A DNA stretch of 64,000 nucleotides from Nitrosopumilus sp. (GTDB taxonomy: Archaea > Thermoproteota > Nitrososphaeria > Nitrososphaerales > Nitrosopumilaceae): the NCBI GenBank assembly GCA_046758125.1, contig JBHHZR010000003.1, positions 1,875 through 65,874 on the forward strand, written 5' to 3'. The notes beneath the pieces are model-generated. The model did not search any database. It was not told the DNA's origin and saw only the letters and a program-made list of their open reading frames with translations. Of this stretch, positions 8,566-27,087 are shown piece after piece. The number at the start of each line of letters is the position of its first letter. Positions within the stretch are counted from its first letter, which is position 1. Made by a program: the position numbers and the translations under genes.

Positions 8566-9861
8566 ATGTCTGAATTAAAGCGTCACATGGGACTTTTTCA
8601 TCTAACTATGTATGGTGTTGGATTAATTCTTGGTGCAGGGATCTATGTCTTAATTGGAGAAACTGCTGGATTTGCAGGAAATTCTATGTGGATTTCCTTT
8701 TTGTTAGGTGCAATTGTTGCAATATTTGCTGGATTAAGTTATGCTGAACTTTCAGCTTTGTTTCCAAAAGCAGCTGCAGAATACACTTTTGTAAAAAATG
8801 CATTTAAGAATAATTTTTTTGGTTTCATAATTGGTTGGTTAACAGCAATTACATCAATTATAGTTGCTGCAACTGTAGCTCTAGGATTTGGAGGATATCT
8901 TACTCAGTTTATTGAAATACCCATCACAGTTGGAGCAATTATTCTAATTGGAATTTTGTCGATAGTAAATTTTATTGGAATCAAAGAATCTGCTTGGGCA
9001 AATACCATTTTTGCAATAATTACTGCGGGGGGATTGATACTCATAATATTTTTAGGATTCTCAACAGAACCTGTTGAATCCATAGATTATTTTGAAATGC
9101 CAAATGGTATTACAGGAATAATTCTCGCATTTGTTTTGATATTTTTTGCATTTATTGGATTTGAAGATATGGCAAATGTTGCAGAAGAGGTTAGAAGGCC
9201 TCACAAAACGATTCCTAGAGCCATTATCTTATCAATAGTAATTACTGGAGTAATTTACATTCTAGTTTCATTATCTGTAATTCGAATTTTAAATTGGGAA
9301 GAATTAGCTGTTTCATCAGCCCCTCTTGCTGATGTTGCACATTCGGTTTTAGGAACAAATGGAAGCATTGCTTTATCACTAATTGCGCTTTTTGCAACCG
9401 CAAGTACTGTTTTGATTACATTGGTTGCGGGAGCACGAATCATGTATGGAATGGCAAAAAGTAACTCATTACCACAATTTTTAGGCAGAATTCATCCTAA
9501 AACAAAGACTCCATGGATTGCAGTAATTGGAATATTAGTTACTTCAGTAGGATTTGCTTTTGTTGGAGATATTGTAATTGTTGCAAATATCGTTGTTTTT
9601 GCTGTAGTTATTACATTTGCAGCAATTAATTTAGCAGTAATTGTTCTACGATATACAGAACCAGTTTTAGAGAGACCTTTTAGAGTTCCAGTAAATATTG
9701 GAAAGTTTCCAATATTACCGTTATTTGGATTTGGAACTACAGTCTATATGGCATTACAGTTTAAAATTGAAGTTGTACTTGTAGGTATAGCAATTATTGG
9801 GATTGGTATGGTTTTGTATGTAATTTTGAAAAAAAGAAATAATTTTATAGACTCTAGTTAA
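8566..9861 (+). CDS. APC-family amino acid permease
   Basis: GLILGAGIY TM1 and FAFIGFED TM6 motifs; about 12 hydrophobic segments. Confidence 0.92.
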   Translation: MSELKRHMGLFHLTMYGVGLILGAGIYVLIGETAGFAGNSMWISFLLGAIVAIFAGLSYAELSALFPKAAAEYTFVKNAFKNNFFGFIIGWLTAITSIIVAATVALGFGGYLTQFIEIPITVGAIILIGILSIVNFIGIKESAWANTIFAIITAGGLILIIFLGFSTEPVESIDYFEMPNGITGIILAFVLIFFAFIGFEDMANVAEEVRRPHKTIPRAIILSIVITGVIYILVSLSVIRILNWEELAVSSAPLADVAHSVLGTNGSIALSLIALFATASTVLITLVAGARIMYGMAKSNSLPQFLGRIHPKTKTPWIAVIGILVTSVGFAFVGDIVIVANIVVFAVVITFAAINLAVIVLRYTEPVLERPFRVPVNIGKFPILPLFGFGTTVYMALQFKIEVVLVGIAIIGIGMVLYVILKKRNNFIDSS

Positions 9862-10514
9862 TTTCTTTTAGATTTTGTTAGCGCAACAATTGCAATAGTA
9901 ATTCCTAGAATACCAACTCCAATTCCAATATATCCAACATTCATCTGTTGTTTACTTTCTTCAAGATTTGCTACTGTATCTTTTAATTCATTAATATCTT
10001 CGATTAATGCAGTATGACCATCAATCATTTGTTGTAGTGTAATATCTGATGGTTCAGGAAATTCTATGTAAGCACGTTCTGCAACTTTTGGAGGATGCAT
10101 TGATAGACTAATTGGAGTGTCTTTAATTGTTCCTAATATGTTTGCTTGATAAAACCCAGAAACAGTTGGATTGACAAATGCATGATACTTTCCTGGAAGA
10201 TTATGATCAGGAGAAATATGAAGTGTTATGCTTTCATCTTTGTATATTAGTTTTATCTTAACTGTTTCTTGTAATCCCTCAATTCCATTTTGAAACTTTT
10301 GAGATCCTGCACATTCGATTGGTTTAGTAATTTCAGGACATGAAAATAAGGGACTAACATAGAATTCAATTGCGTTTGTTTCTCCTGAAACAACTGGCTC
10401 ATTCATCCAACCAATTTCTACCCTATAATCTCCAACAGCGTCAATTGTATGTCCATATGCTACACCAATTAAGCCTGGAATAATTAACAAAACCAGTAAT
10501 AGATAAGATTTCAA
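9858..10514 (-). CDS. Exported, membrane-anchored hypothetical protein
   Basis: Signal peptide ending AYG-H, short coiled coil, C-terminal TM helix; TTG start. Confidence 0.65.
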   Translation of the reverse strand: MKSYLLLVLLIIPGLIGVAYGHTIDAVGDYRVEIGWMNEPVVSGETNAIEFYVSPLFSCPEITKPIECAGSQKFQNGIEGLQETVKIKLIYKDESITLHISPDHNLPGKYHAFVNPTVSGFYQANILGTIKDTPISLSMHPPKVAERAYIEFPEPSDITLQQMIDGHTALIEDINELKDTVANLEESKQQMNVGYIGIGVGILGITIAIVALTKSKRN

Positions 10515-10593: not shown

Positions 10594-12039
10594 TTATGCA
10601 TCTGCATACATTGAAACTTCCCAAGCTGTGGGAGTTTGTGCAAATGCAGTATATTCTTTGTATTTTAGTTCAGTATATTTACCAAGAAAATCTTTGGTGA
10701 AAACCTCTTCTAAGAATGCAGAATCACTTTGTAAAGAATCAAGTGCTCCTTTTAGTGATACTGGCAGAGATCCAATGTTATACTCATGTTTCTTTTCAGC
10801 AGTAAGTTTGTAGACATTTTCTTCAATTGGATCACCAGGATCAATTTTATTTTTAATTCCATCTAGTCCTGCTAATAATAATGCAGATTCTAAAAGATAG
10901 ATATTTGCAGTAGGATCAGGTACACGATATTCTAATCTTTTACTTTTTTCTTGATTTCTAGTGTACATTGGAACTCTGATTGCAGCAGATCTATTACCTA
11001 ATCCCCAACAAACATTGACAGGTGCTTCAAATCCTGGAACTAGACGTTTGTATGAATTTGTTGTAGGGTTTGATATTGCACAAAGAGCTGATGCATGACT
11101 CAAAATTCCACCAACATAATATCTTCCAGTTTGACTCATCTGAGCTACTTTATCATCTTGATCATACATTGCATTTGTATTTTCGTTCCACAAGCTCTGA
11201 TGAGTATGCATTGCAGATGCATTATCACCAAAAATTGGTTTTGGCATAAATGTTGCAACTTTATTTTTTCGTTTAGCTTTGACTTTGACTAAATTTTTCA
11301 CTCCAATTACATGATCAGCCATCTGGATCATTTCATCATATTCAAGATTAATTTCACATTGACCAGAAGTTGCGACTTCATGATGTTCTGCTTCTATTCT
11401 AATCCCAAAGAAATTATACAAATCATCACATACATCCTTTCTAAACCCCTCTAGAGTATCCTTAGGTTGAGATGGGTAATATCCTTCTTTCAAATTAATT
11501 GCAGTACTAACATTTCCTTTAGCCCAAGGTGATTCTTTAGATTCAATAGAATATCCCGAACCACCGTATGATTGGGTTGCAGCATATGGAGATGGATAAA
11601 CATTGATAGTATCAAAAACAAAAAATTCTATTTCAGGTCCCCAGTTTGTATGAGTTAATCCAAACTCTTTGAGCTTCTTTGATGCTTTATGTGCAATTCC
11701 TCTTGAATCCCTATTGTATCTTGAACTTTCATCAGTACTTCCATCATACAAATCACAGAAGATTCGAGCATTTCTTCTATTGCTAGGATCATAATCAGAT
11801 GGAAGAATTTTAAATGAGGTTGGGTCTGGCATCAAAATCATATCAGAGTGATTTACAGATTTGAATCCAACAATTGAGCTTGCATCCAATTTCTCAAGGC
11901 CGTTTACAAAACTGTTTTCATCAATTGCATAGCTTGGCATACCGACGTTATGCAGTTCACCGAAAATATCTACAAACCAAAAATCAATAAATGAAATTTT
12001 TTCAGCTTTTATGGTTTGTAGCACTTGTTCTGCGTTCAA
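10594..12039 (-). CDS. glnA: Glutamine synthetase type I paralogue (variant active-site loop)
   Basis: GPEIEFF, HHEVA.SGQCEI, FMPKP, NSYKRLVPGFEAP and RLEYRVPDP motifs. NASAMH replaces NGSGMH. Confidence 0.9.
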   Translation of the reverse strand: MNAEQVLQTIKAEKISFIDFWFVDIFGELHNVGMPSYAIDENSFVNGLEKLDASSIVGFKSVNHSDMILMPDPTSFKILPSDYDPSNRRNARIFCDLYDGSTDESSRYNRDSRGIAHKASKKLKEFGLTHTNWGPEIEFFVFDTINVYPSPYAATQSYGGSGYSIESKESPWAKGNVSTAINLKEGYYPSQPKDTLEGFRKDVCDDLYNFFGIRIEAEHHEVATSGQCEINLEYDEMIQMADHVIGVKNLVKVKAKRKNKVATFMPKPIFGDNASAMHTHQSLWNENTNAMYDQDDKVAQMSQTGRYYVGGILSHASALCAISNPTTNSYKRLVPGFEAPVNVCWGLGNRSAAIRVPMYTRNQEKSKRLEYRVPDPTANIYLLESALLLAGLDGIKNKIDPGDPIEENVYKLTAEKKHEYNIGSLPVSLKGALDSLQSDSAFLEEVFTKDFLGKYTELKYKEYTAFAQTPTAWEVSMYADA

Positions 12040-12119: not shown

Positions 12120-13466
12120 TTAACTGCTTTTTGATGTCTTGAGTGCATTTAATTCATCTTCAAAGAAGAATTTGTCACCAAATGCAGGTTTTAAATCATC
12201 TAACCAAATCGCATTTTCGTCGTATTTTGCAAAAAATGGTTCTTTAACCCAGTTTGGGTTTCGCCCCTGCAAAAATCTTAAAACAAGTAATTTTTGATCG
12301 TTAAATTCTGCAGTTCCAACAACCTGAACTTTTCCAGGGGTTGCTGACATACTAGGTCCGCGTACGGTTCTTGCCAACCCACTAACAGAAGAATATGCTT
12401 GGCTAAAGATTTCATATGCTTTGACTAAAGGAACTCCGAAATAATGCTGAGCGCCTGTGTCTCTTACAACAAACATGTAGTAGGGTATACAACCAAGTTG
12501 AACTTGTTTGGTCCACATTTTTGACCACATTTCTGCATCGTCATTAATATGAGCTAAAAGTGGAGATTGTGTTCTAATTTGAGCACCAGTTTTTCTAACT
12601 TCTTTAATTGCAGATTTTACGGCATTTGTTGACAGTTCATTAAGATGATTAAAGTGCGCCATAATTGCAAGGTGTAACCCGTTATCAGTTATTTTTCTAA
12701 AAATATCTAACATTTCTTGTGAGTCAGCATCTGTCAAAAATTTGTAAGGCCAATAAGAAAGAGCTTTTGTTCCAATTCTGATTGTTTTGAGGTTTGGAAG
12801 TTTAGATTCGATAAGAGCATCTATATATTTTGAGAAAATCTTTGCTTTCATAATCATAGGATCACCACCGGTAAATAAGATATCAGAAATTTCTGGATGT
12901 TCTGAAACATATTGTATTAGTTGTTCACCTTCTTGCATAGCAAATTTCATTTCATCCATTCCAACAAATTGTGGCCATCGAAAACAAAAACTACAATATG
13001 CATGACAAGTTTGACTTTGACTAGGGAAAAAGAGGCAGGTTTCTTTGTATTTATGTTGCATTCCATAAAGTTTAGTTCCATCTTTTAGTGTTGGAACATT
13101 TAGTTCCATTTGTCCAGCTGGATGTGGATTTAATTGTAAACGAATTTCATTTGCAACAGATGCAATTTCTTTTTTATCAGAATTATTTCTTAAAACAGAT
13201 TCCATTTTTTTGTAATGTTCTGGTTTTAACATTTCCTTTTGAGGAAAAGTCAATACATACATTGGATCAGTAGGTATGTTTTTCCAATCAATTAATTGTT
13301 CAACAACATAATTATTTGCTTTAAATGGCAAAACATTTCCTACAACTTCCATTTCAAATTGAGTTTCTTTTGAAATATTCTGGATTTGTGGGAGAGTGCG
13401 GAAATTTGATAATGTGTATGATTTTAATGATGGATTCTCATCCCAAACTGATTCTTGATAGGTCAT
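12120..13466 (-). CDS. kamA: KamA-family radical-SAM amino acid 2,3-aminomutase (possibly glutamate 2,3-aminomutase)
   Basis: CHAYCSFCFR (CxxxCxxC), LFTGGDP, RIGTK, PYYMF, and the PLP Lys in PGK. Confidence 0.85.
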   Translation of the reverse strand: MTYQESVWDENPSLKSYTLSNFRTLPQIQNISKETQFEMEVVGNVLPFKANNYVVEQLIDWKNIPTDPMYVLTFPQKEMLKPEHYKKMESVLRNNSDKKEIASVANEIRLQLNPHPAGQMELNVPTLKDGTKLYGMQHKYKETCLFFPSQSQTCHAYCSFCFRWPQFVGMDEMKFAMQEGEQLIQYVSEHPEISDILFTGGDPMIMKAKIFSKYIDALIESKLPNLKTIRIGTKALSYWPYKFLTDADSQEMLDIFRKITDNGLHLAIMAHFNHLNELSTNAVKSAIKEVRKTGAQIRTQSPLLAHINDDAEMWSKMWTKQVQLGCIPYYMFVVRDTGAQHYFGVPLVKAYEIFSQAYSSVSGLARTVRGPSMSATPGKVQVVGTAEFNDQKLLVLRFLQGRNPNWVKEPFFAKYDENAIWLDDLKPAFGDKFFFEDELNALKTSKSS

Positions 13467-13596
13467 TTAGTAAATAGTACTCAAACCCTTGTTAAAGGTT
13501 ACATGTTTCTTACGCATAAAATTTTTTGAATTTGATTAGAATATGGGTTAACCTTTGTATTCTAGAACATAATTTTGGTTAGAATAGTGATTAAAC

Positions 13597-15336
13597 ATGG
13601 CTGAAGAAGAATTATCACAAATTTCTGTAGGGGAGTTTGAGACTGTTTCTGAGCTTTTAGCATCATCTGAGTCACTTCAATTAGCATTTTTCATTATGAT
13701 TGTAGGAATAATTGGAATAGTTATTGGGTATAGAAAATTTTCATCGTGGGTAGGTTCACAAAAATTCTATTATCAAAGACCTCATTTTTCAAGATTTGTA
13801 CGTAGATCTGTTCTGCCATTTTTTGCTATTGCGTTAATTACTGCAATTAATGTTTACATTCAAACTGGTGAATTATTAGGAGAAGATTTATCGCTAGTTC
13901 AAGGAGAGGATATATCTCCTCAAGAAACATTTGCAAAGATTCTCAATACTTTTAATATTTTAGTAATTGGCTATACAATTTCACATCTGATTCCAATTGT
14001 TCTTACTAAACGTGATAAATCCATCTTAGAAAAAGAGGATTTTGAAGCATGGTTTGAGATGAGAGGATTTGTTGATGATAAAGATGATCTATTTCATAAG
14101 CTGTACAAGTGGGTTCCACCAAAAATTACTCCTGAAGATATTGAAGAAGAAAAATTCCAAGAAATGCTCAAGACTGAAAAAGGAACGCAATACTTGGAAC
14201 AATTTCGAACAACAAAAGGTAATCCAATTGGAGGATATGAGAAATTAGTTGAAAATCCATTTGAAGAATGGAAGAAATCAGAACGTACAAAATATGAAAA
14301 ATATTTCCAAAATTGTATTACTGGTGAAAATCAATCTGGTAGAAAACTAAGACTTGGTGCAAAACCTGATGAGATATTTCCAATTGATATATGGCGAGAA
14401 GAGAAAAGAGTGCATGGTTATGAACCAATAATTCCAAGTTCACGTCCTCCTGGATATGCAAAAAAGAAAAGAGAAGGTATTCCAAAGTCTGCAAAACAAA
14501 TACTTCCTATAGGAATTTTCATTGCAACAATTTTGGGAGTTGTTGCATGGTGGGGAGTAGATTTGATTGTTATTGCAACAGCCACAGGAGGATTTTCAAT
14601 TGGTTTAGGTTTGGCATTACAAGAAACTATGCAGAATTATTTTGCTTATATCATGATTAGAAAAGACAAAATTTTCGTTGAAGGGGATAGAGTACAACTT
14701 GAGACTGGTTATAATGGATATGTGCATAAAATCACGCCTAGAGTAACATACATCAGGGATGCATTATACGAATCAATTGCAGTAATTCCAACTAGACAAT
14801 TAGTTTCTGCACAGATAATCAATTACACCAAAGAAAACAAACTTGTTCCAGCAGTTGTTAAAGTTGGAGTTTCTTATCTAAATAATCCTAGACAAGTTGC
14901 ATCAATTTTGGTGAAAGTTGGTAAGCGAGGAATGAAAGAGATTGTTGATGTAAAGGGCAGACATCTAGTAAGACAAAATAGATGTCCATATCTAAATCAA
15001 AATAAACCAAGTTGTGGTTGCGATAAAGAACTCCATGTAGAAATATCACAACCTGTTGTTAGATTTAATGATTTTAATGATTCATCACTTGATTTTTCAA
15101 TGTGGGTATATGTCAGAGATTATGGTGCTCAATTCAAAACAAAAACTGATTTGAGGATGATAATGTATGAAGAATTCAAGAAATATGATATTAGAATTCC
15201 ATGGCCAATTCGAACTGTCTATCAAGGAGATGAGAAGAAAGAATTTGAAGAGATTAGTCAATTAGATCCAGATAGAAATAAGGTAATTGAGGACTATGGT
15301 CTTGGGGATCTTGGACGTGGAGAAGGAGACGATTAG
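13597..15336 (+). CDS. mscS: MscS-family mechanosensitive channel with large insertions
   Basis: GLGLALQETMQNYFAYI...GDRVQL...GYVHKI...IPTRQLV...INYT MscS core; FNDFNDSSLDF C-terminal domain. Confidence 0.85.
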   Translation: MAEEELSQISVGEFETVSELLASSESLQLAFFIMIVGIIGIVIGYRKFSSWVGSQKFYYQRPHFSRFVRRSVLPFFAIALITAINVYIQTGELLGEDLSLVQGEDISPQETFAKILNTFNILVIGYTISHLIPIVLTKRDKSILEKEDFEAWFEMRGFVDDKDDLFHKLYKWVPPKITPEDIEEEKFQEMLKTEKGTQYLEQFRTTKGNPIGGYEKLVENPFEEWKKSERTKYEKYFQNCITGENQSGRKLRLGAKPDEIFPIDIWREEKRVHGYEPIIPSSRPPGYAKKKREGIPKSAKQILPIGIFIATILGVVAWWGVDLIVIATATGGFSIGLGLALQETMQNYFAYIMIRKDKIFVEGDRVQLETGYNGYVHKITPRVTYIRDALYESIAVIPTRQLVSAQIINYTKENKLVPAVVKVGVSYLNNPRQVASILVKVGKRGMKEIVDVKGRHLVRQNRCPYLNQNKPSCGCDKELHVEISQPVVRFNDFNDSSLDFSMWVYVRDYGAQFKTKTDLRMIMYEEFKKYDIRIPWPIRTVYQGDEKKEFEEISQLDPDRNKVIEDYGLGDLGRGEGDD

Positions 15337-25626: not shown

Positions 25627-27087
25627 TTGCCCTATAAAGTTAGTCATGGAAAAGCGATCCAAGTAACATACTCACCAGATGAAGTTTTTGCAAGAATTCA
25701 GCATGAGGGAATTCAATTTATTGATCTACAATTTACAGGTCTTACAGGTCGTTTTCATCATACTACAATTTCAGCAAATACATTTACTCCTGAACAAATG
25801 CGGGATGGATTACCTAAACTAGATGGGTCATCAATTATTGGTTTTACTAGCATTGATGATTCAGATCTACTTTTAAAACCAGATCCAAATACATTTGCAA
25901 TTATTCCATGGATGACAGAAAACAAAACAGCCAGACTGCTTTGTGATGTTTATTGGGGAGAAAATAGAGGAAGATTATCAAGAGATCCTAGAGGAATTGC
26001 TCAAAAAGCAGAAGAATACACCAAATCTCAGGGATTTGATTTTAGTAATTGGGGTCCTGAGGTAGAATTCTTTGTTTTTGATAAAGTGTTTTGGGATGTT
26101 TTAACACCATACAAAGGACAATCTTATGCAATTGAATCAAAAGAAGCACCATGGAATCATGATGGTGATGGATATCCAATGGGATTACAAGAAGGATATT
26201 ATCCTAGTACACCACATGATACTCTTACACCATATAGAAATGAGTGTGTAAACATTCTCAACAAAAATTTTGGAATCTTGTGTGATAATCATCATCACGA
26301 GGTTGCAACTGCAGGACAATGTGAGATTGATATTAGATATGATCTTATGACTAATGCGGCAGATGCTGCACAAACTTACAAATATGTTATTAGAAACGTT
26401 GCAAAGAAATTTGGAAAAGTTGCAACAATGATGCCTAAACCAATAGCAATGGACTCAGGTTCTGGGATGCATGTTAATGTTAGTTTATGGAAAGGAAAAG
26501 ATAATGCATTTTATGATCCAGATGATGAGATTGAATTAAGTCAAATTGGCAGATATTTCTGTGGTGGAATTATTAATCATGCAAAAGCATTATCTGCAAT
26601 TTGTAATCCTACAACTAACTCATATCATAGATTAGTACCTGGATATGAAGCTCCAGCATACATTGCATGGAGCTCAGGAAATCGTTCAGCTATAGTAAGA
26701 GTTCCAAAACATCTTACAGGAAAAGAGTATTCACATCTAAAACGACTTGAATTTAGAGCACCTGATCCTTCATCAAATCCATATCTTGTTTTTGCATCTG
26801 TAACAGCTGCGGGAATGGATGGAATAAAAAAGAAGATGGATCCTGGGGATCAGGTACGTGATGATATCTTTAAGATGACTAGATCCGATAGGGCAAAAAG
26901 AGGTATAGGCGTTCTTCCAAAAAGTCTTGGGGAAGCATTAGATGAATTAGAAAGTGATAGAAAATTCCTTAGCCCAATTTATACAAGTGATGTTATAGAT
27001 AAAATTATAGAATTAGAAAGAAGAGATCAACGTGAGATATCTATTAGACCACATCCTCACGAGTTTTATCTTTACTTTGATGTTTAG
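25627..27087 (+). CDS. glnA: Glutamine synthetase type I
   Basis: LDGSS, GPEVEFF, HHEVATAGQCEI, GSGMH, NSYHRLVPGYEAP and RLEFRAPDP motifs; TTG start. Confidence 0.95.
   Translation: MPYKVSHGKAIQVTYSPDEVFARIQHEGIQFIDLQFTGLTGRFHHTTISANTFTPEQMRDGLPKLDGSSIIGFTSIDDSDLLLKPDPNTFAIIPWMTENKTARLLCDVYWGENRGRLSRDPRGIAQKAEEYTKSQGFDFSNWGPEVEFFVFDKVFWDVLTPYKGQSYAIESKEAPWNHDGDGYPMGLQEGYYPSTPHDTLTPYRNECVNILNKNFGILCDNHHHEVATAGQCEIDIRYDLMTNAADAAQTYKYVIRNVAKKFGKVATMMPKPIAMDSGSGMHVNVSLWKGKDNAFYDPDDEIELSQIGRYFCGGIINHAKALSAICNPTTNSYHRLVPGYEAPAYIAWSSGNRSAIVRVPKHLTGKEYSHLKRLEFRAPDPSSNPYLVFASVTAAGMDGIKKKMDPGDQVRDDIFKMTRSDRAKRGIGVLPKSLGEALDELESDRKFLSPIYTSDVIDKIIELERRDQREISIRPHPHEFYLYFDV

What the first reader, a model, noticed from the sequence alone, without database searches (positions are those of the whole stretch)
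12120..13466. KamA enzyme shows charge reversal at the lysine side-chain pocket
Seen, by eye alignment: PYYMFVVR versus lysine aminomutase PYYIYQCD, and SMSATPGK versus VVDAPGGGGK. The two Asp residues (Clostridium D293 and D330) that bind the lysine epsilon-amine appear as Arg and Ser. Established (from recall): glutamate 2,3-aminomutase has Lys and Asn at these positions. Inference: the substrate is acidic (Glu or Asp), so a lysine 2,3-aminomutase label is likely wrong.
Basis: partly seen in the sequence, partly recalled or inferred. Interest (0 to 1): 0.62.

Follow-up and report, generated by a model that had tools for sequence, protein, structure and literature searches.

The report
Probable beta-glutamate-making aminomutase of Nitrosopumilus
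This gene is labelled a lysine aminomutase, but it lacks the lysine-binding residues and groups with enzymes linked to turning glutamate into beta-glutamate, so it is the best candidate for the unidentified gene behind the most abundant small molecule measured in a marine ammonia-oxidising archaeon.

Summary
ORF 12120-13466 (-) encodes a 448-aa KamA-type radical-SAM/PLP enzyme. Three alignment methods place Arg335 at lysine 2,3-aminomutase (LAM) Asp293 and Ser372 at Asp330. The Fe-S cysteines, the alpha-carboxylate Arg (R163) and the PLP Lys (K379) are kept. R335 is invariant and S372 nearly so in 140 Nitrosopumilaceae orthologues.

The interpretation (acidic substrate, lysine label wrong) is supported, and narrowed to glutamate. 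A 2,3-shift on aspartate would return aspartate.

The protein is not a known glutamate 2,3-aminomutase of the bacterial type (TIGR04368, 89.9 bits against a cut-off of 650) or the methanococcal MJ0634 type (20-22% identity, Lys at the Asp293 position). It belongs to a large separate clade in which Arg at that position is the rule. It is 44-48% identical to proteins inside incednine-type macrolactam gene clusters. There the aminomutase IdnL4 is tied to Glu-to-beta-Glu conversion by feeding and knockout.

N. maritimus holds about 730 mM beta-glutamate with no assigned gene. This is the genome's only KamA-family gene, and no ablB is present. The neighbouring MscS channel and second glutamine synthetase occur only in genomes that carry it.

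No assay exists and no pocket geometry could be computed. Confidence that it makes beta-glutamate is about 0.75.

The parts
12120..13466 (-). KamA-like radical-SAM/PLP 2,3-aminomutase, 448 aa; proposed glutamate 2,3-aminomutase (beta-glutamate synthase)
   Evidence: ORF. KamA-family models match below their cut-offs. AlphaFold2 model has pLDDT 93.9. Best solved fold is LAM 2A5H, E 8e-20, TM 0.63-0.69.
12984..13007 (-). C154-x3-C158-x2-C161, the [4Fe-4S]/SAM cluster motif (CHAYCSFC)
   Evidence: Invariant in 87 relatives and 140 orthologues.
12978..12980 (-). Arg163, equivalent of LAM Arg134 (binds the substrate alpha-carboxylate in LAM; that role is from recalled literature)
   Evidence: Alignments. 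140/140 in orthologues. 69/71 in non-Nitrosopumilaceae relatives.
12858..12872 (-). T199-G-G-D-P203, SAM-binding GGD motif
12462..12464 (-). Arg335 (AGA) at the position of LAM Asp293: the charge reversal
   Evidence: 140/140 in orthologues. 57/71 in wider relatives. 118 of 119 motif-matched actinomycete homologues read xRD here, 115 of them ERD.
12351..12353 (-). Ser372 (AGT) at the position of LAM Asp330
   Evidence: Gapless alignment anchored on K379. 139/140 in orthologues. The position is Val in macrolactam-cluster homologues.
12330..12332 (-). Lys379, equivalent of the PLP-binding Lys337 of LAM
   Evidence: Invariant in all alignments.
13597..15336 (+). 579-aa MscS-type mechanosensitive channel, transcribed divergently from the aminomutase
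   Evidence: Pfam MS_channel_2nd and MS_channel_3rd. Adjacent in 17 of 20 representatives sampled from 19 other genera. Orthologues are found in 123 genomes, all of which carry the aminomutase.
10594..12039 (-). Second type I glutamine synthetase (GS2), downstream on the same strand; 44% identical to the other GS in the window (25627-27087)
   Evidence: TIGR00653, 513.9 bits. Paralogue identity. Adjacent in 13 of 20 representatives, and within 3.4 kb in a 14th. Orthologues are found in 107 family genomes, all carrying the aminomutase. The DNASAMH loop is conserved in 11 of 12 neighbour-locus GS2 orthologues, against DSGSGMH in GS1.
13467..13596 (.). 130-bp divergent intergenic region between the aminomutase and MscS (presumed shared promoter region; not analysed)
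   Evidence: Coordinates, sequence. No regulatory test was done.

Best explanation
The gene most likely encodes a glutamate 2,3-aminomutase of the IdnL4 type. This is a radical-SAM, PLP-dependent enzyme that moves the amino group of L-glutamate from C2 to C3 and gives beta-glutamate.

Shown from sequence: the [4Fe-4S]/SAM motif (C154/C158/C161), the GGD SAM motif, the alpha-carboxylate Arg (R163) and the PLP Lys (K379) of lysine 2,3-aminomutase are all kept. The overall fold is predicted to be that of LAM.

Inferred: chemistry proceeds as in LAM. The cluster cleaves SAM reductively to a 5'-deoxyadenosyl radical. This abstracts a C3 hydrogen from substrate held as an external aldimine on PLP. 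The amino group migrates through an aziridinyl-type radical, and the hydrogen is returned.

Inferred: the distal pocket, where LAM uses Asp293 and Asp330 to hold the lysine ammonium, instead offers Arg335 to the gamma-carboxylate of glutamate. The small neutral Ser372 sits at the other position.

Inferred: in Nitrosopumilaceae the product accumulates as the main organic anion or compatible solute. The divergently transcribed MscS channel may act as its release valve. The adjacent GS2, where present, acts on or regulates the same pool, possibly amidating beta-glutamate to beta-glutamine.
For: 1. Residues. Arg335 and Ser372 replace Asp293 and Asp330 in three alignment methods. R335 is invariant and S372 is 139/140 in 140 orthologues.

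2. Clade. A tree puts the protein in a large clade separate from LAM/AblA, BlsG, TIGR03822, EpmB and the MJ0634 type. Arg at this position is widespread in that clade.

3. Link to a studied reaction. Homologues 44-48% identical, reading PYYMFVERDTG and GPVMS..PGK, lie inside Vin/Idn-type macrolactam PKS clusters. Beside them are a VinJ-like hydrolase, an aminotransferase-fold PLP enzyme, a VinK-like transferase, two adenylating enzymes and an ACP. This holds for Streptomyces sp. NBC_00334 and Kibdelosporangium persicum. K. persicum, K. banguiense and Planomonospora parontospora are listed with an IdnL4 hit in 3-aminobutyrate clusters in the supplement of PMC10662134. Each has such a protein. 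IdnL4 is assigned to L-Glu to beta-Glu by feeding experiments and gene disruption (PMC11284099).

4. Need. Beta-glutamate is the most abundant identified metabolite of N. maritimus, at about 730 mM, and no gene is named for it (PMC8269262). No open paper found links an aminomutase to it in these archaea.

5. Sole candidate. This is the only KamA-family gene in a 99.5%-complete genome, and there is no ablB.

6. Context. MscS and GS2 orthologues occur only in genomes that have this gene: 123 and 107 of 143 carriers, and none of 158 non-carriers. Synteny is kept across genera. A Magnetococcales homologue independently sits beside a betaine-type N-methyltransferase-like gene and a 1246-aa MS channel. 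An Amycolatopsis homologue sits with a Glu-dehydrogenase-like gene, the same PLP partner (50% identical) and CoA-transferase, hydratase and lyase genes.
Against: No enzyme of this clade has shown activity in vitro; the review states this for IdnL4.

The IdnL4 sequence itself was not in hand. Its membership of the clade is inferred from cluster context and a published hit table.

45% identity does not guarantee the same substrate.

Other clade members carrying the same Arg lie beside, or are fused to, Lys/Orn-type N-monooxygenases with a cupin and a MetRS-like gene. That machinery recalls, from memory, pathways that act on lysine.

The second pocket position differs between the archaeal and macrolactam enzymes (Ser against Val).

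The gene is also present in Nitrosotalea (acid soil) and Nitrosarchaeum sp. AC2. A purely marine salt-stress role is therefore too narrow.

That N. maritimus SCM1 itself carries the gene was not checked directly. It is inferred from presence in 66 of 67 genomes of the window's genus.
Confidence: 0.75

Rival explanations
1. It is a 2,3-aminomutase of the same chemistry but for a different substrate, for example 2-aminoadipate, glutamine, methionine, or a lysine/ornithine derivative with a distal acidic or N-oxygenated group. Beta-glutamate in these archaea would then come from elsewhere.
For: Clade members with the same xRD motif occur in varied contexts. One is fused to a Lys/Orn-type N-monooxygenase next to cupin, MetRS-like, saccharopine-dehydrogenase-like and ATP-grasp genes. 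The same set occurs unfused in Rhodococcus. Others lie in NRPS or type III PKS surroundings. The Asp330-equivalent varies within the clade (S, V, T, I, C). No in vitro data exist for any member.
Against: No other KamA-family gene exists in the genome to make the roughly 730 mM beta-glutamate pool. I know of no other biosynthetic route to beta-glutamate. The nearest studied context, incednine-type clusters, is a glutamate-to-beta-glutamate step. The Amycolatopsis context is a Glu-dehydrogenase-like gene plus CoA-ester enzymes that I read as handling dicarboxylates.
Confidence: 0.15
2. It is a genuine lysine 2,3-aminomutase, as annotated. It would make beta-lysine for an N-epsilon-acetyl-beta-lysine-type osmolyte or another use.
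For: Public records name it lysine 2,3-aminomutase. The best solved-structure match is LAM.
Against: Both lysine epsilon-amine ligands are replaced, one by a cationic Arg. The score is 112.8 bits against the 525.4 cut-off of the LAM model. No ablB is in the genome. Identity to LAM, AblA and EpmB is only 25-27%. The public names are automatic family-level labels.
Confidence: 0.03
3. Arg335 is structural, for example salt-bridged to the invariant Asp336. It says nothing about the substrate, or the protein performs a different radical-SAM reaction.
For: R335 and D336 are adjacent and both invariant. No coordinates were available to check side-chain direction. Arginine 2,3-aminomutase BlsG keeps Asp293 but lacks Asp330, so the two positions do not map simply onto substrate charge.
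Against: The PLP lysine, the alpha-carboxylate Arg, the SAM motifs and the LAM fold are all retained. This argues for aminomutase chemistry on an alpha-amino acid. In the wider clade, position 336 is often Pro, Ala or Asn while Arg335 is kept. The Arg therefore does not depend on an Asp336 partner.
Confidence: 0.07

Closest known systems
IdnL4-type glutamate 2,3-aminomutase of 3-aminobutyrate-primed macrolactam clusters (incednine, Streptomyces sp. ML694-90F3; orthologues in Kibdelosporangium, Planomonospora, Streptomyces)
   Same: Homologues found inside such clusters are 44-48% identical over about 400-426 residues. They have the same length class (about 440-460 aa), the same QTCHAYCxxCFRW cluster motif, the same PYYMFxxRDTG motif with Arg at LAM Asp293, and the same GPxMSxTPGK PLP-lysine motif. 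The proposed reaction, L-Glu to beta-Glu, is the same.
   Different: Residue 334 is Glu there and Val here. Residue 372 is Val there and Ser here. In the bacterial clusters the partner is a PLP beta-glutamate decarboxylase (IdnL3-like) and the product feeds a polyketide. Here there is no such neighbour, and the product would accumulate as a solute, next to MscS and a GS paralogue. IdnL4 has genetic and feeding support but no in vitro activity (PMC11284099). The IdnL4 sequence itself was not examined.
Methanococcal glutamate 2,3-aminomutase (MmarC7_1783 of Methanococcus maripaludis, Tunckanat et al. 2022 Biochemistry 61:1077; MJ0634-type)
   Same: It is an archaeal KamA-family enzyme that makes beta-glutamate as an osmolyte. 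This is the same physiological role as proposed here. It has a cationic residue at the LAM Asp293 position.
   Different: Identity is only 20-22%. The Methanocaldococcus MJ0634-type proteins are 593-619 aa, with about 200 extra N-terminal residues. They have Lys, not Arg (PYYTFYPK), with Asn near the second site. They pass TIGR00238 (497 bits), and their next-best model is the bacterial EAM model (188 bits). The window protein fails TIGR00238 and scores lowest on the EAM model among the six KamA-family models. That the sequences I used are orthologues of MmarC7_1783 is from recall; the paper could not be read.
Bacterial glutamate 2,3-aminomutase Eam (Clostridioides difficile; NCBIfam TIGR04368; Ruzicka & Frey 2007)
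   Same: Same family-level chemistry and same proposed substrate and product. The logic of replacing the lysine-binding Asp with a cationic residue is the same.
   Different: The score is 89.9 bits against a cut-off of 650. By recalled literature it has Lys332 and Asn369, where this protein has Arg and Ser. It serves glutamate fermentation in anaerobes. No sequence of this family could be fetched for a direct alignment.
Lysine 2,3-aminomutase KamA/AblA (Clostridium subterminale, PDB 2A5H; Bacillus AblA)
   Same: It is the best solved-structure match (E 8e-20, TM 0.63-0.69 over about 408 columns). It shares the CxxxCxxC motif, the GGD motif, the alpha-carboxylate Arg and the PLP Lys.
   Different: Identity is 25-27%. 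Asp293 and Asp330 are replaced. The C-terminal Cys motif (HCDCDVC in the A. noterae orthologue) is absent. There is no ablB partner. The N-terminal region ahead of the cluster motif is about 29 residues longer.

Membership tests
KamA family radical SAM/PLP aminomutases (NCBIfam TIGR00238) | CxxxCxxC [4Fe-4S]/SAM motif | tested here: met
   C154/C158/C161, invariant.
KamA family radical SAM/PLP aminomutases (NCBIfam TIGR00238) | PLP-binding lysine near the C-terminal end of the core (LAM Lys337) | tested here: met
   K379 aligns with K337 and is invariant in all sets.
KamA family radical SAM/PLP aminomutases (NCBIfam TIGR00238) | Score at or above the curated cut-off (199.2 bits) | tested here: not met
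   132.4 bits. In the six-frame genome search it scores 128.9 bits. It is a divergent branch of the superfamily.
KamA family radical SAM/PLP aminomutases (NCBIfam TIGR00238) | LAM-like fold | tested here: met
   AlphaFold2 model pLDDT 93.9. 2A5H is the top hit by 14 orders of magnitude in E-value.
Lysine 2,3-aminomutase (TIGR03820, EC 5.4.3.2) | Asp293 and Asp330, which bind the lysine epsilon-ammonium (role from recalled literature: Lepore 2005, Chen 2006) | tested here: not met
   Arg335 and Ser372 occupy these positions.
Lysine 2,3-aminomutase (TIGR03820, EC 5.4.3.2) | Score at or above the cut-off (525.4 bits) | tested here: not met
   112.8 bits.
Lysine 2,3-aminomutase (TIGR03820, EC 5.4.3.2) | AblB beta-lysine acetyltransferase partner (for the osmolyte pathway) | tested here: not met
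   TIGR03827 finds nothing in the 99.5%-complete genome.
Bacterial glutamate 2,3-aminomutase (TIGR04368, EC 5.4.3.9) | Score at or above the cut-off (650 bits) | tested here: not met
   89.9 bits, the lowest of the six KamA-family models.
Bacterial glutamate 2,3-aminomutase (TIGR04368, EC 5.4.3.9) | Lys and Asn at the positions of LAM Asp293 and Asp330 (recalled from Ruzicka & Frey 2007) | tested here: not met
   Arg and Ser are found instead. The principle of a cationic residue at the 293 position is shared.
Methanococcal glutamate 2,3-aminomutase (MmarC7_1783 / MJ0634 type) | Long N-terminal extension (about 160 aa by the paper's abstract, recalled) and close sequence similarity | tested here: not met
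   The window protein is 448 aa. Methanocaldococcus proteins are 593-619 aa. Identity is 20-22%.
IdnL4-type glutamate 2,3-aminomutase (macrolactam 3-aminobutyrate pathway) | Full-length similarity to the KamA-like enzyme found in Vin/Idn-type clusters | tested here: met
   44-48% identity, E about 1e-150, to proteins of Streptomyces sp. NBC_00334, K. persicum, K. banguiense, P. parontospora and Micromonospora.
IdnL4-type glutamate 2,3-aminomutase (macrolactam 3-aminobutyrate pathway) | Signature PYYxFxxRDTG and GPxMSxxxGK | tested here: met
   The window reads PYYMFVVRDTG and GPSMSATPGK. Of 119 motif-matched actinomycete homologues, 115 read ERD; of 116 matched at the second motif, 111 read GPVMS.
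IdnL4-type glutamate 2,3-aminomutase (macrolactam 3-aminobutyrate pathway) | Adjacent IdnL3-type PLP beta-glutamate decarboxylase and beta-amino-acid loading genes | tested here: not met
   The neighbours here are MscS, GS2, a permease and PRPP synthetase. The pathway context differs, as expected if the product is the end-point. The rest of the genome was not searched for an IdnL3-type gene.
IdnL4-type glutamate 2,3-aminomutase (macrolactam 3-aminobutyrate pathway) | Conversion of L-glutamate to beta-glutamate | not testable with these tools
   This needs an anaerobic enzyme assay or heterologous expression. It has not been shown in vitro even for IdnL4 (PMC11284099).
EF-P beta-lysylation enzyme EpmB (TIGR03821) | Score at or above the cut-off (369.3 bits); Asp at the 293 position | tested here: not met
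   102.9 bits. E. coli EpmB has Asp (LD) where this protein has Arg.

The most novel reading that the evidence does not exclude
A third, Arg-based lineage of glutamate 2,3-aminomutase (the IdnL4 type) would be the missing beta-glutamate synthase of the Nitrosopumilaceae. It would form the obligate core of a three-gene solute module. The GS paralogue with the altered substrate loop (DNASAMH) would amidate beta-glutamate to beta-glutamine or otherwise control the pool. The dedicated 579-aa MscS would vent it on osmotic downshift. The large bacterial clade that carries the same Arg would mostly comprise glutamate 2,3-aminomutases now mislabelled as lysine enzymes.
Probability: 0.3. Interest if true: 0.72.

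Novelty: new member of a known kind. Interest (0 to 1): 0.6.

Why it matters
Marine ammonia-oxidising archaea are among the most abundant cells in the ocean. Beta-glutamate is the most abundant identified metabolite of N. maritimus (about 730 mM). It increases with depth in Pacific particulate metabolomes (PMC8269262). No gene has been assigned to its synthesis in the literature I could search.

Naming the gene would make that pool traceable in metagenomes and metatranscriptomes. It gives a simple prediction: strains of Nitrosarchaeum or Nitrosotalea that lack the gene should lack beta-glutamate. It would also correct a label, "lysine 2,3-aminomutase", that is propagated over thousands of archaeal and actinomycete proteins.

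It would give enzymologists an aminomutase that must work in an obligate aerobe. It would also connect an archaeal osmolyte enzyme to the still uncharacterised IdnL4 step of macrolactam antibiotic biosynthesis.

Tried and rejected
1. Pocket geometry. The AlphaFold2 model was good, but its coordinates are not exposed. No distances or docking could be computed.

2. Bacterial EAM sequence. None was found among plasmid records or in the Acetoanaerobium record. The papers by Ruzicka & Frey 2007, Tunckanat 2022, Lepore 2005, the Byer 2018 methods chapter and one further review could not be read. Residue roles in LAM and the Lys332/Asn369 claim therefore rest on recall.

3. P0224 (608 aa) was tested as a possible methanogen-type enzyme. 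Its relatives are bacterial and about 530 aa, so the idea was rejected.

4. A marine-only distribution was tested as support for a salt-stress osmolyte role. It was rejected, because Nitrosotalea devanaterra and Nitrosarchaeum sp. AC2 carry the gene.

6. One literature search was wasted on residue names and another on locus tags.

7. The name IdnL4 did not appear among the listed names of close actinomycete homologues. The link was made through cluster context and the published hit table instead.

8. Aspartate was rejected as a substrate on chemical grounds: the 2,3-shift is degenerate.
Full report
**The object.** ORF 12120-13466 on the minus strand encodes 448 aa. The window is about 32% G+C. 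The closest public protein, at 92% identity, is from Candidatus Nitrosopumilus koreensis AR1, where it is named L-lysine 2,3-aminomutase. The protein matches KamA-family models only below their cut-offs:
- TIGR00238: 132.4 bits (cut-off 199.2)
- LAM: 112.8 (525.4)
- EpmB: 102.9 (369.3)
- arginine aminomutase: 99 (600)
- glutamate aminomutase: 89.9 (650)

The only solved relative by sequence is LAM from Clostridium subterminale, PDB 2A5H. An AlphaFold2 model built on 87 relatives has pLDDT 93.9. Its best structural match by far is 2A5H (E 8e-20, TM 0.63-0.69, next hit E 3e-6).

**The observation.** PYYMFVVR is residues 328-335 and SMSATPGK is residues 372-379. Three methods agree on the register:
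- phmmer against 2A5H
- a profile of 87 relatives against 2A5H
- MAFFT L-INS-i with a LAM orthologue (Acetoanaerobium noterae), Bacillus AblA, BlsG, a TIGR03822 protein and E. coli EpmB

All three place Arg335 at LAM Asp293. The multiple alignment also places Ser372 at Asp330, without gaps from the PLP lysine (K379 = K337). All five canonical enzymes have Asp at the first position.

The Fe-S cysteines (C154/C158/C161), the GGD motif and R163 (= LAM R134) are conserved. In 140 Nitrosopumilaceae orthologues, with identity down to 63%, R335, D336, S374 and K379 are invariant and S372 is 139/140. The roles of LAM Asp293 and Asp330 (epsilon-ammonium), Arg134 (alpha-carboxylate) and Lys337 (PLP) are from recalled literature (Lepore et al. 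2005; Chen et al. 2006). I could not open those papers.

**Comparison with known glutamate 2,3-aminomutases.** I could not fetch the Clostridioides difficile enzyme. I reached Methanococcales genomes through an exact-pattern scan with a remembered tRNA-Tyr segment. I then took their single KamA-family gene. These Methanocaldococcus proteins are 593-619 aa, of the MJ0634 type. By my recall of Tunckanat et al. 2022 (cited), this type is orthologous to the experimentally supported methanogen enzyme MmarC7_1783.

They read PYYTFYPK, so Lys sits at the Asp293 position. At the second site they read IFNVPRMGK. The alignment puts Phe at the Asp330 position and Asn one residue later.

The window protein is only 20-22% identical to them. 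They pass TIGR00238 (497 bits), and their second-best model is the bacterial EAM model. The window protein scores lowest on that model among the six KamA-family models. It therefore belongs to neither known glutamate aminomutase family.

**The clade.** A search of 1.84 billion cluster representatives found 325 proteins at E <= 1e-30. Full-length relatives, at 30-64% identity, mostly carry Arg at position 335. In a maximum-likelihood tree this set forms a lineage apart from LAM/AblA, BlsG, TIGR03822, EpmB and the MJ0634 type. Arg is widespread in it, and one subclade has lost it. The charge reversal is therefore an old hallmark of a large, uncharacterised KamA-like clade. It is not a local adaptation.

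**The link to a studied reaction.** tblastn of the window protein against plasmid records found cultured-bacterium homologues at 43-51% identity. In Streptomyces sp. NBC_00334 the homologue lies among:
- six type I PKS genes
- a proline-iminopeptidase-family hydrolase (VinJ-like)
- an aminotransferase-fold PLP enzyme
- two adenylating enzymes
- a stand-alone carrier protein
- an acyltransferase
- deoxysugar and glycosyltransferase genes

In Kibdelosporangium persicum the gene order is hydrolase, KamA-like, Aminotran_1_2, VinK_C, AMP-binding, PP-binding, AMP-binding, PKS. This is the beta-amino-acid loading cassette of macrolactam antibiotics (PMC11284099).

Within that class, a radical-SAM aminomutase together with a PLP decarboxylase marks the 3-aminobutyrate (incednine) type. 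There, feeding experiments show L-Glu to beta-Glu to 3-aminobutyrate. IdnL3 decarboxylates beta-glutamate. Disruption of idnL4 blocks 3-aminobutyrate supply. IdnL4 has not been active in vitro.

The genome-mining table of PMC10662134 lists K. persicum, K. banguiense and Planomonospora parontospora with an IdnL4 hit in such clusters. Each of these species has a clade member 71-73% identical to the Streptomyces protein. These proteins are 44-48% identical to the window protein. Of 119 motif-matched actinomycete homologues, 115 read PYY..ERD; of 116 matched at the second motif, 111 read GPVMS.

I did not see the IdnL4 sequence itself. Its placement in the clade is therefore an inference from context, though a strong one.

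**Physiology.** Heal et al. 2021 found beta-glutamic acid to be the most abundant identified metabolite of N. maritimus SCM1, at about 730 mM, and more abundant at depth in the ocean. They name no gene (PMC8269262). Searches of the open literature found no paper linking an aminomutase to beta-glutamate in these archaea. A 2026 survey of osmoprotection genes in Nitrosarchaeum and Nitrosopumilus does not mention it. In the window's genome (99.5% complete) this is the only KamA-family gene, and there is no ablB.

**Distribution and context.** In 301 genomes of the class, 143 carry the gene, all in one family. That includes 66 of 67 genomes in the window's genus and 21 genera in total. Carriers include Nitrosotalea devanaterra (acid soil), Nitrosarchaeum sp. 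AC2 and sponge-associated lineages. The role is therefore not limited to sea-salt stress.

In representatives sampled from 19 other genera, the MscS gene is adjacent and divergent in 17 of 20. GS2 is adjacent downstream in 13 of 20, and within 3.4 kb in a 14th. Orthologues of the MscS (123 genomes) and of GS2 (107 family genomes) occur only in genomes that have the aminomutase. None of the 158 genomes without it has either. Six hits at about 51% identity in another family were set aside as a different GS type.

GS2 is 44% identical to the window's other GS. It carries DNASAMH where that GS has DSGSGMH, and this is conserved in 11 of 12 neighbour-locus GS2 orthologues. By recalled GS structural work, this loop contacts the substrate amino group. 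Beta-glutamate differs from glutamate only in where that group sits. A role of GS2 on beta-glutamate is therefore a reasonable but untested idea.

Two bacterial contexts point the same way:
- A Magnetococcales homologue sits beside a methyltransferase whose best match is sarcosine/dimethylglycine N-methyltransferase, a cupin and a 1246-aa MS channel.
- An Amycolatopsis homologue sits with a Glu/Leu/Phe/Val dehydrogenase-family gene, the same PLP partner as in the macrolactam cluster (50% identical), and CoA-transferase, MaoC-hydratase and CoA-ester-lyase genes.

**Cautions.**
- Other members with the same Arg are fused to, or lie beside, a Lys/Orn-type N-monooxygenase with a cupin, a MetRS-like protein and a saccharopine-dehydrogenase-like protein. 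From memory, that set resembles hydrazine-forming machinery that starts from N6-hydroxylysine.
- The Asp330-equivalent differs within the clade.
- No enzyme of the clade has been assayed successfully.

**Verdict.** The enzyme is most likely an IdnL4-type glutamate 2,3-aminomutase that makes beta-glutamate (about 0.75). Aspartate is excluded on chemical grounds. The lysine label is almost certainly wrong. The enzyme is a new member of a known kind of enzyme in a new physiological setting, and it supplies a candidate for a real gap in marine microbial metabolism.

Noticed in passing
window 10594-12039 (-), compared with 25627-27087 (+): The glutamine synthetase next to the aminomutase is a paralogue, 44% identical to the window's other GS. 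It has a conserved DNASAMH loop instead of DSGSGMH, and LDASS instead of LDGSS. Its orthologues exist only in genomes that carry the aminomutase. It could act on beta-glutamate, but this is untested.
   Followed up: partly
window 9858-10514 (-): A 218-aa protein matches no family in Pfam or NCBIfam and has hydrophobic stretches at both ends. It lies next to GS2, and a homologue is found on the GS2 side of the locus in at least eight other genera' representatives (directly adjacent in seven). It may belong to the same module.
   Followed up: no
L054 6337-8985 (protein P0129) and L083 9001-15795: An 882-aa fusion joins a Lys/Orn-type N-monooxygenase to a clade member (43% identical to the window protein in the phmmer search). 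It lies beside cupin, MetRS-like, saccharopine-dehydrogenase-like, ATP-grasp and FemAB-like genes. The same genes occur unfused on a Rhodococcus plasmid, except that a GNAT acetyltransferase stands where the FemAB-like gene is. The cluster looks like N-N-bond-forming natural-product machinery with a beta-amino-acid branch.
   Followed up: partly
L078 7001-14555 (Magnetococcales MAG, GCA_015232395.1): A clade member is followed by a 471-aa methyltransferase (best match sarcosine/dimethylglycine N-methyltransferase), a DMSP-lyase-like cupin and a 1246-aa mechanosensitive channel. This may be a bacterial pathway for a methylated beta-amino-acid solute.
   Followed up: partly
L081 6014-18218 (Amycolatopsis sp. 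AA4 plasmid): A clade member lies with an IdnL3-like PLP enzyme, a Glu/Leu/Phe/Val dehydrogenase-family gene, a CoA transferase, two MaoC dehydratases and two CoA-ester lyases, under a GntR regulator. This looks like a catabolic route for glutamate through beta-glutamate or 3-aminobutyrate.
   Followed up: no
G066:C1:302541-303398 (a genome of the window's genus): One Nitrosopumilus genome carries a second, distant paralogue (32% identity, 392-aa frame) besides the orthologue.
   Followed up: no
proteins P0278-P0396 (relatives of P0224): A separate bacterial subclade of about 520-550 aa occurs in Bacteroidales, Balneolaceae, Geopsychrobacter, Sumerlaeia and others. In the members examined it has an N-terminal extension, an insert of about 12 residues after the QSP motif, and xRP/xRA at the Arg position. 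Nearly all are named hypothetical protein or lysine 2,3-aminomutase.
   Followed up: no
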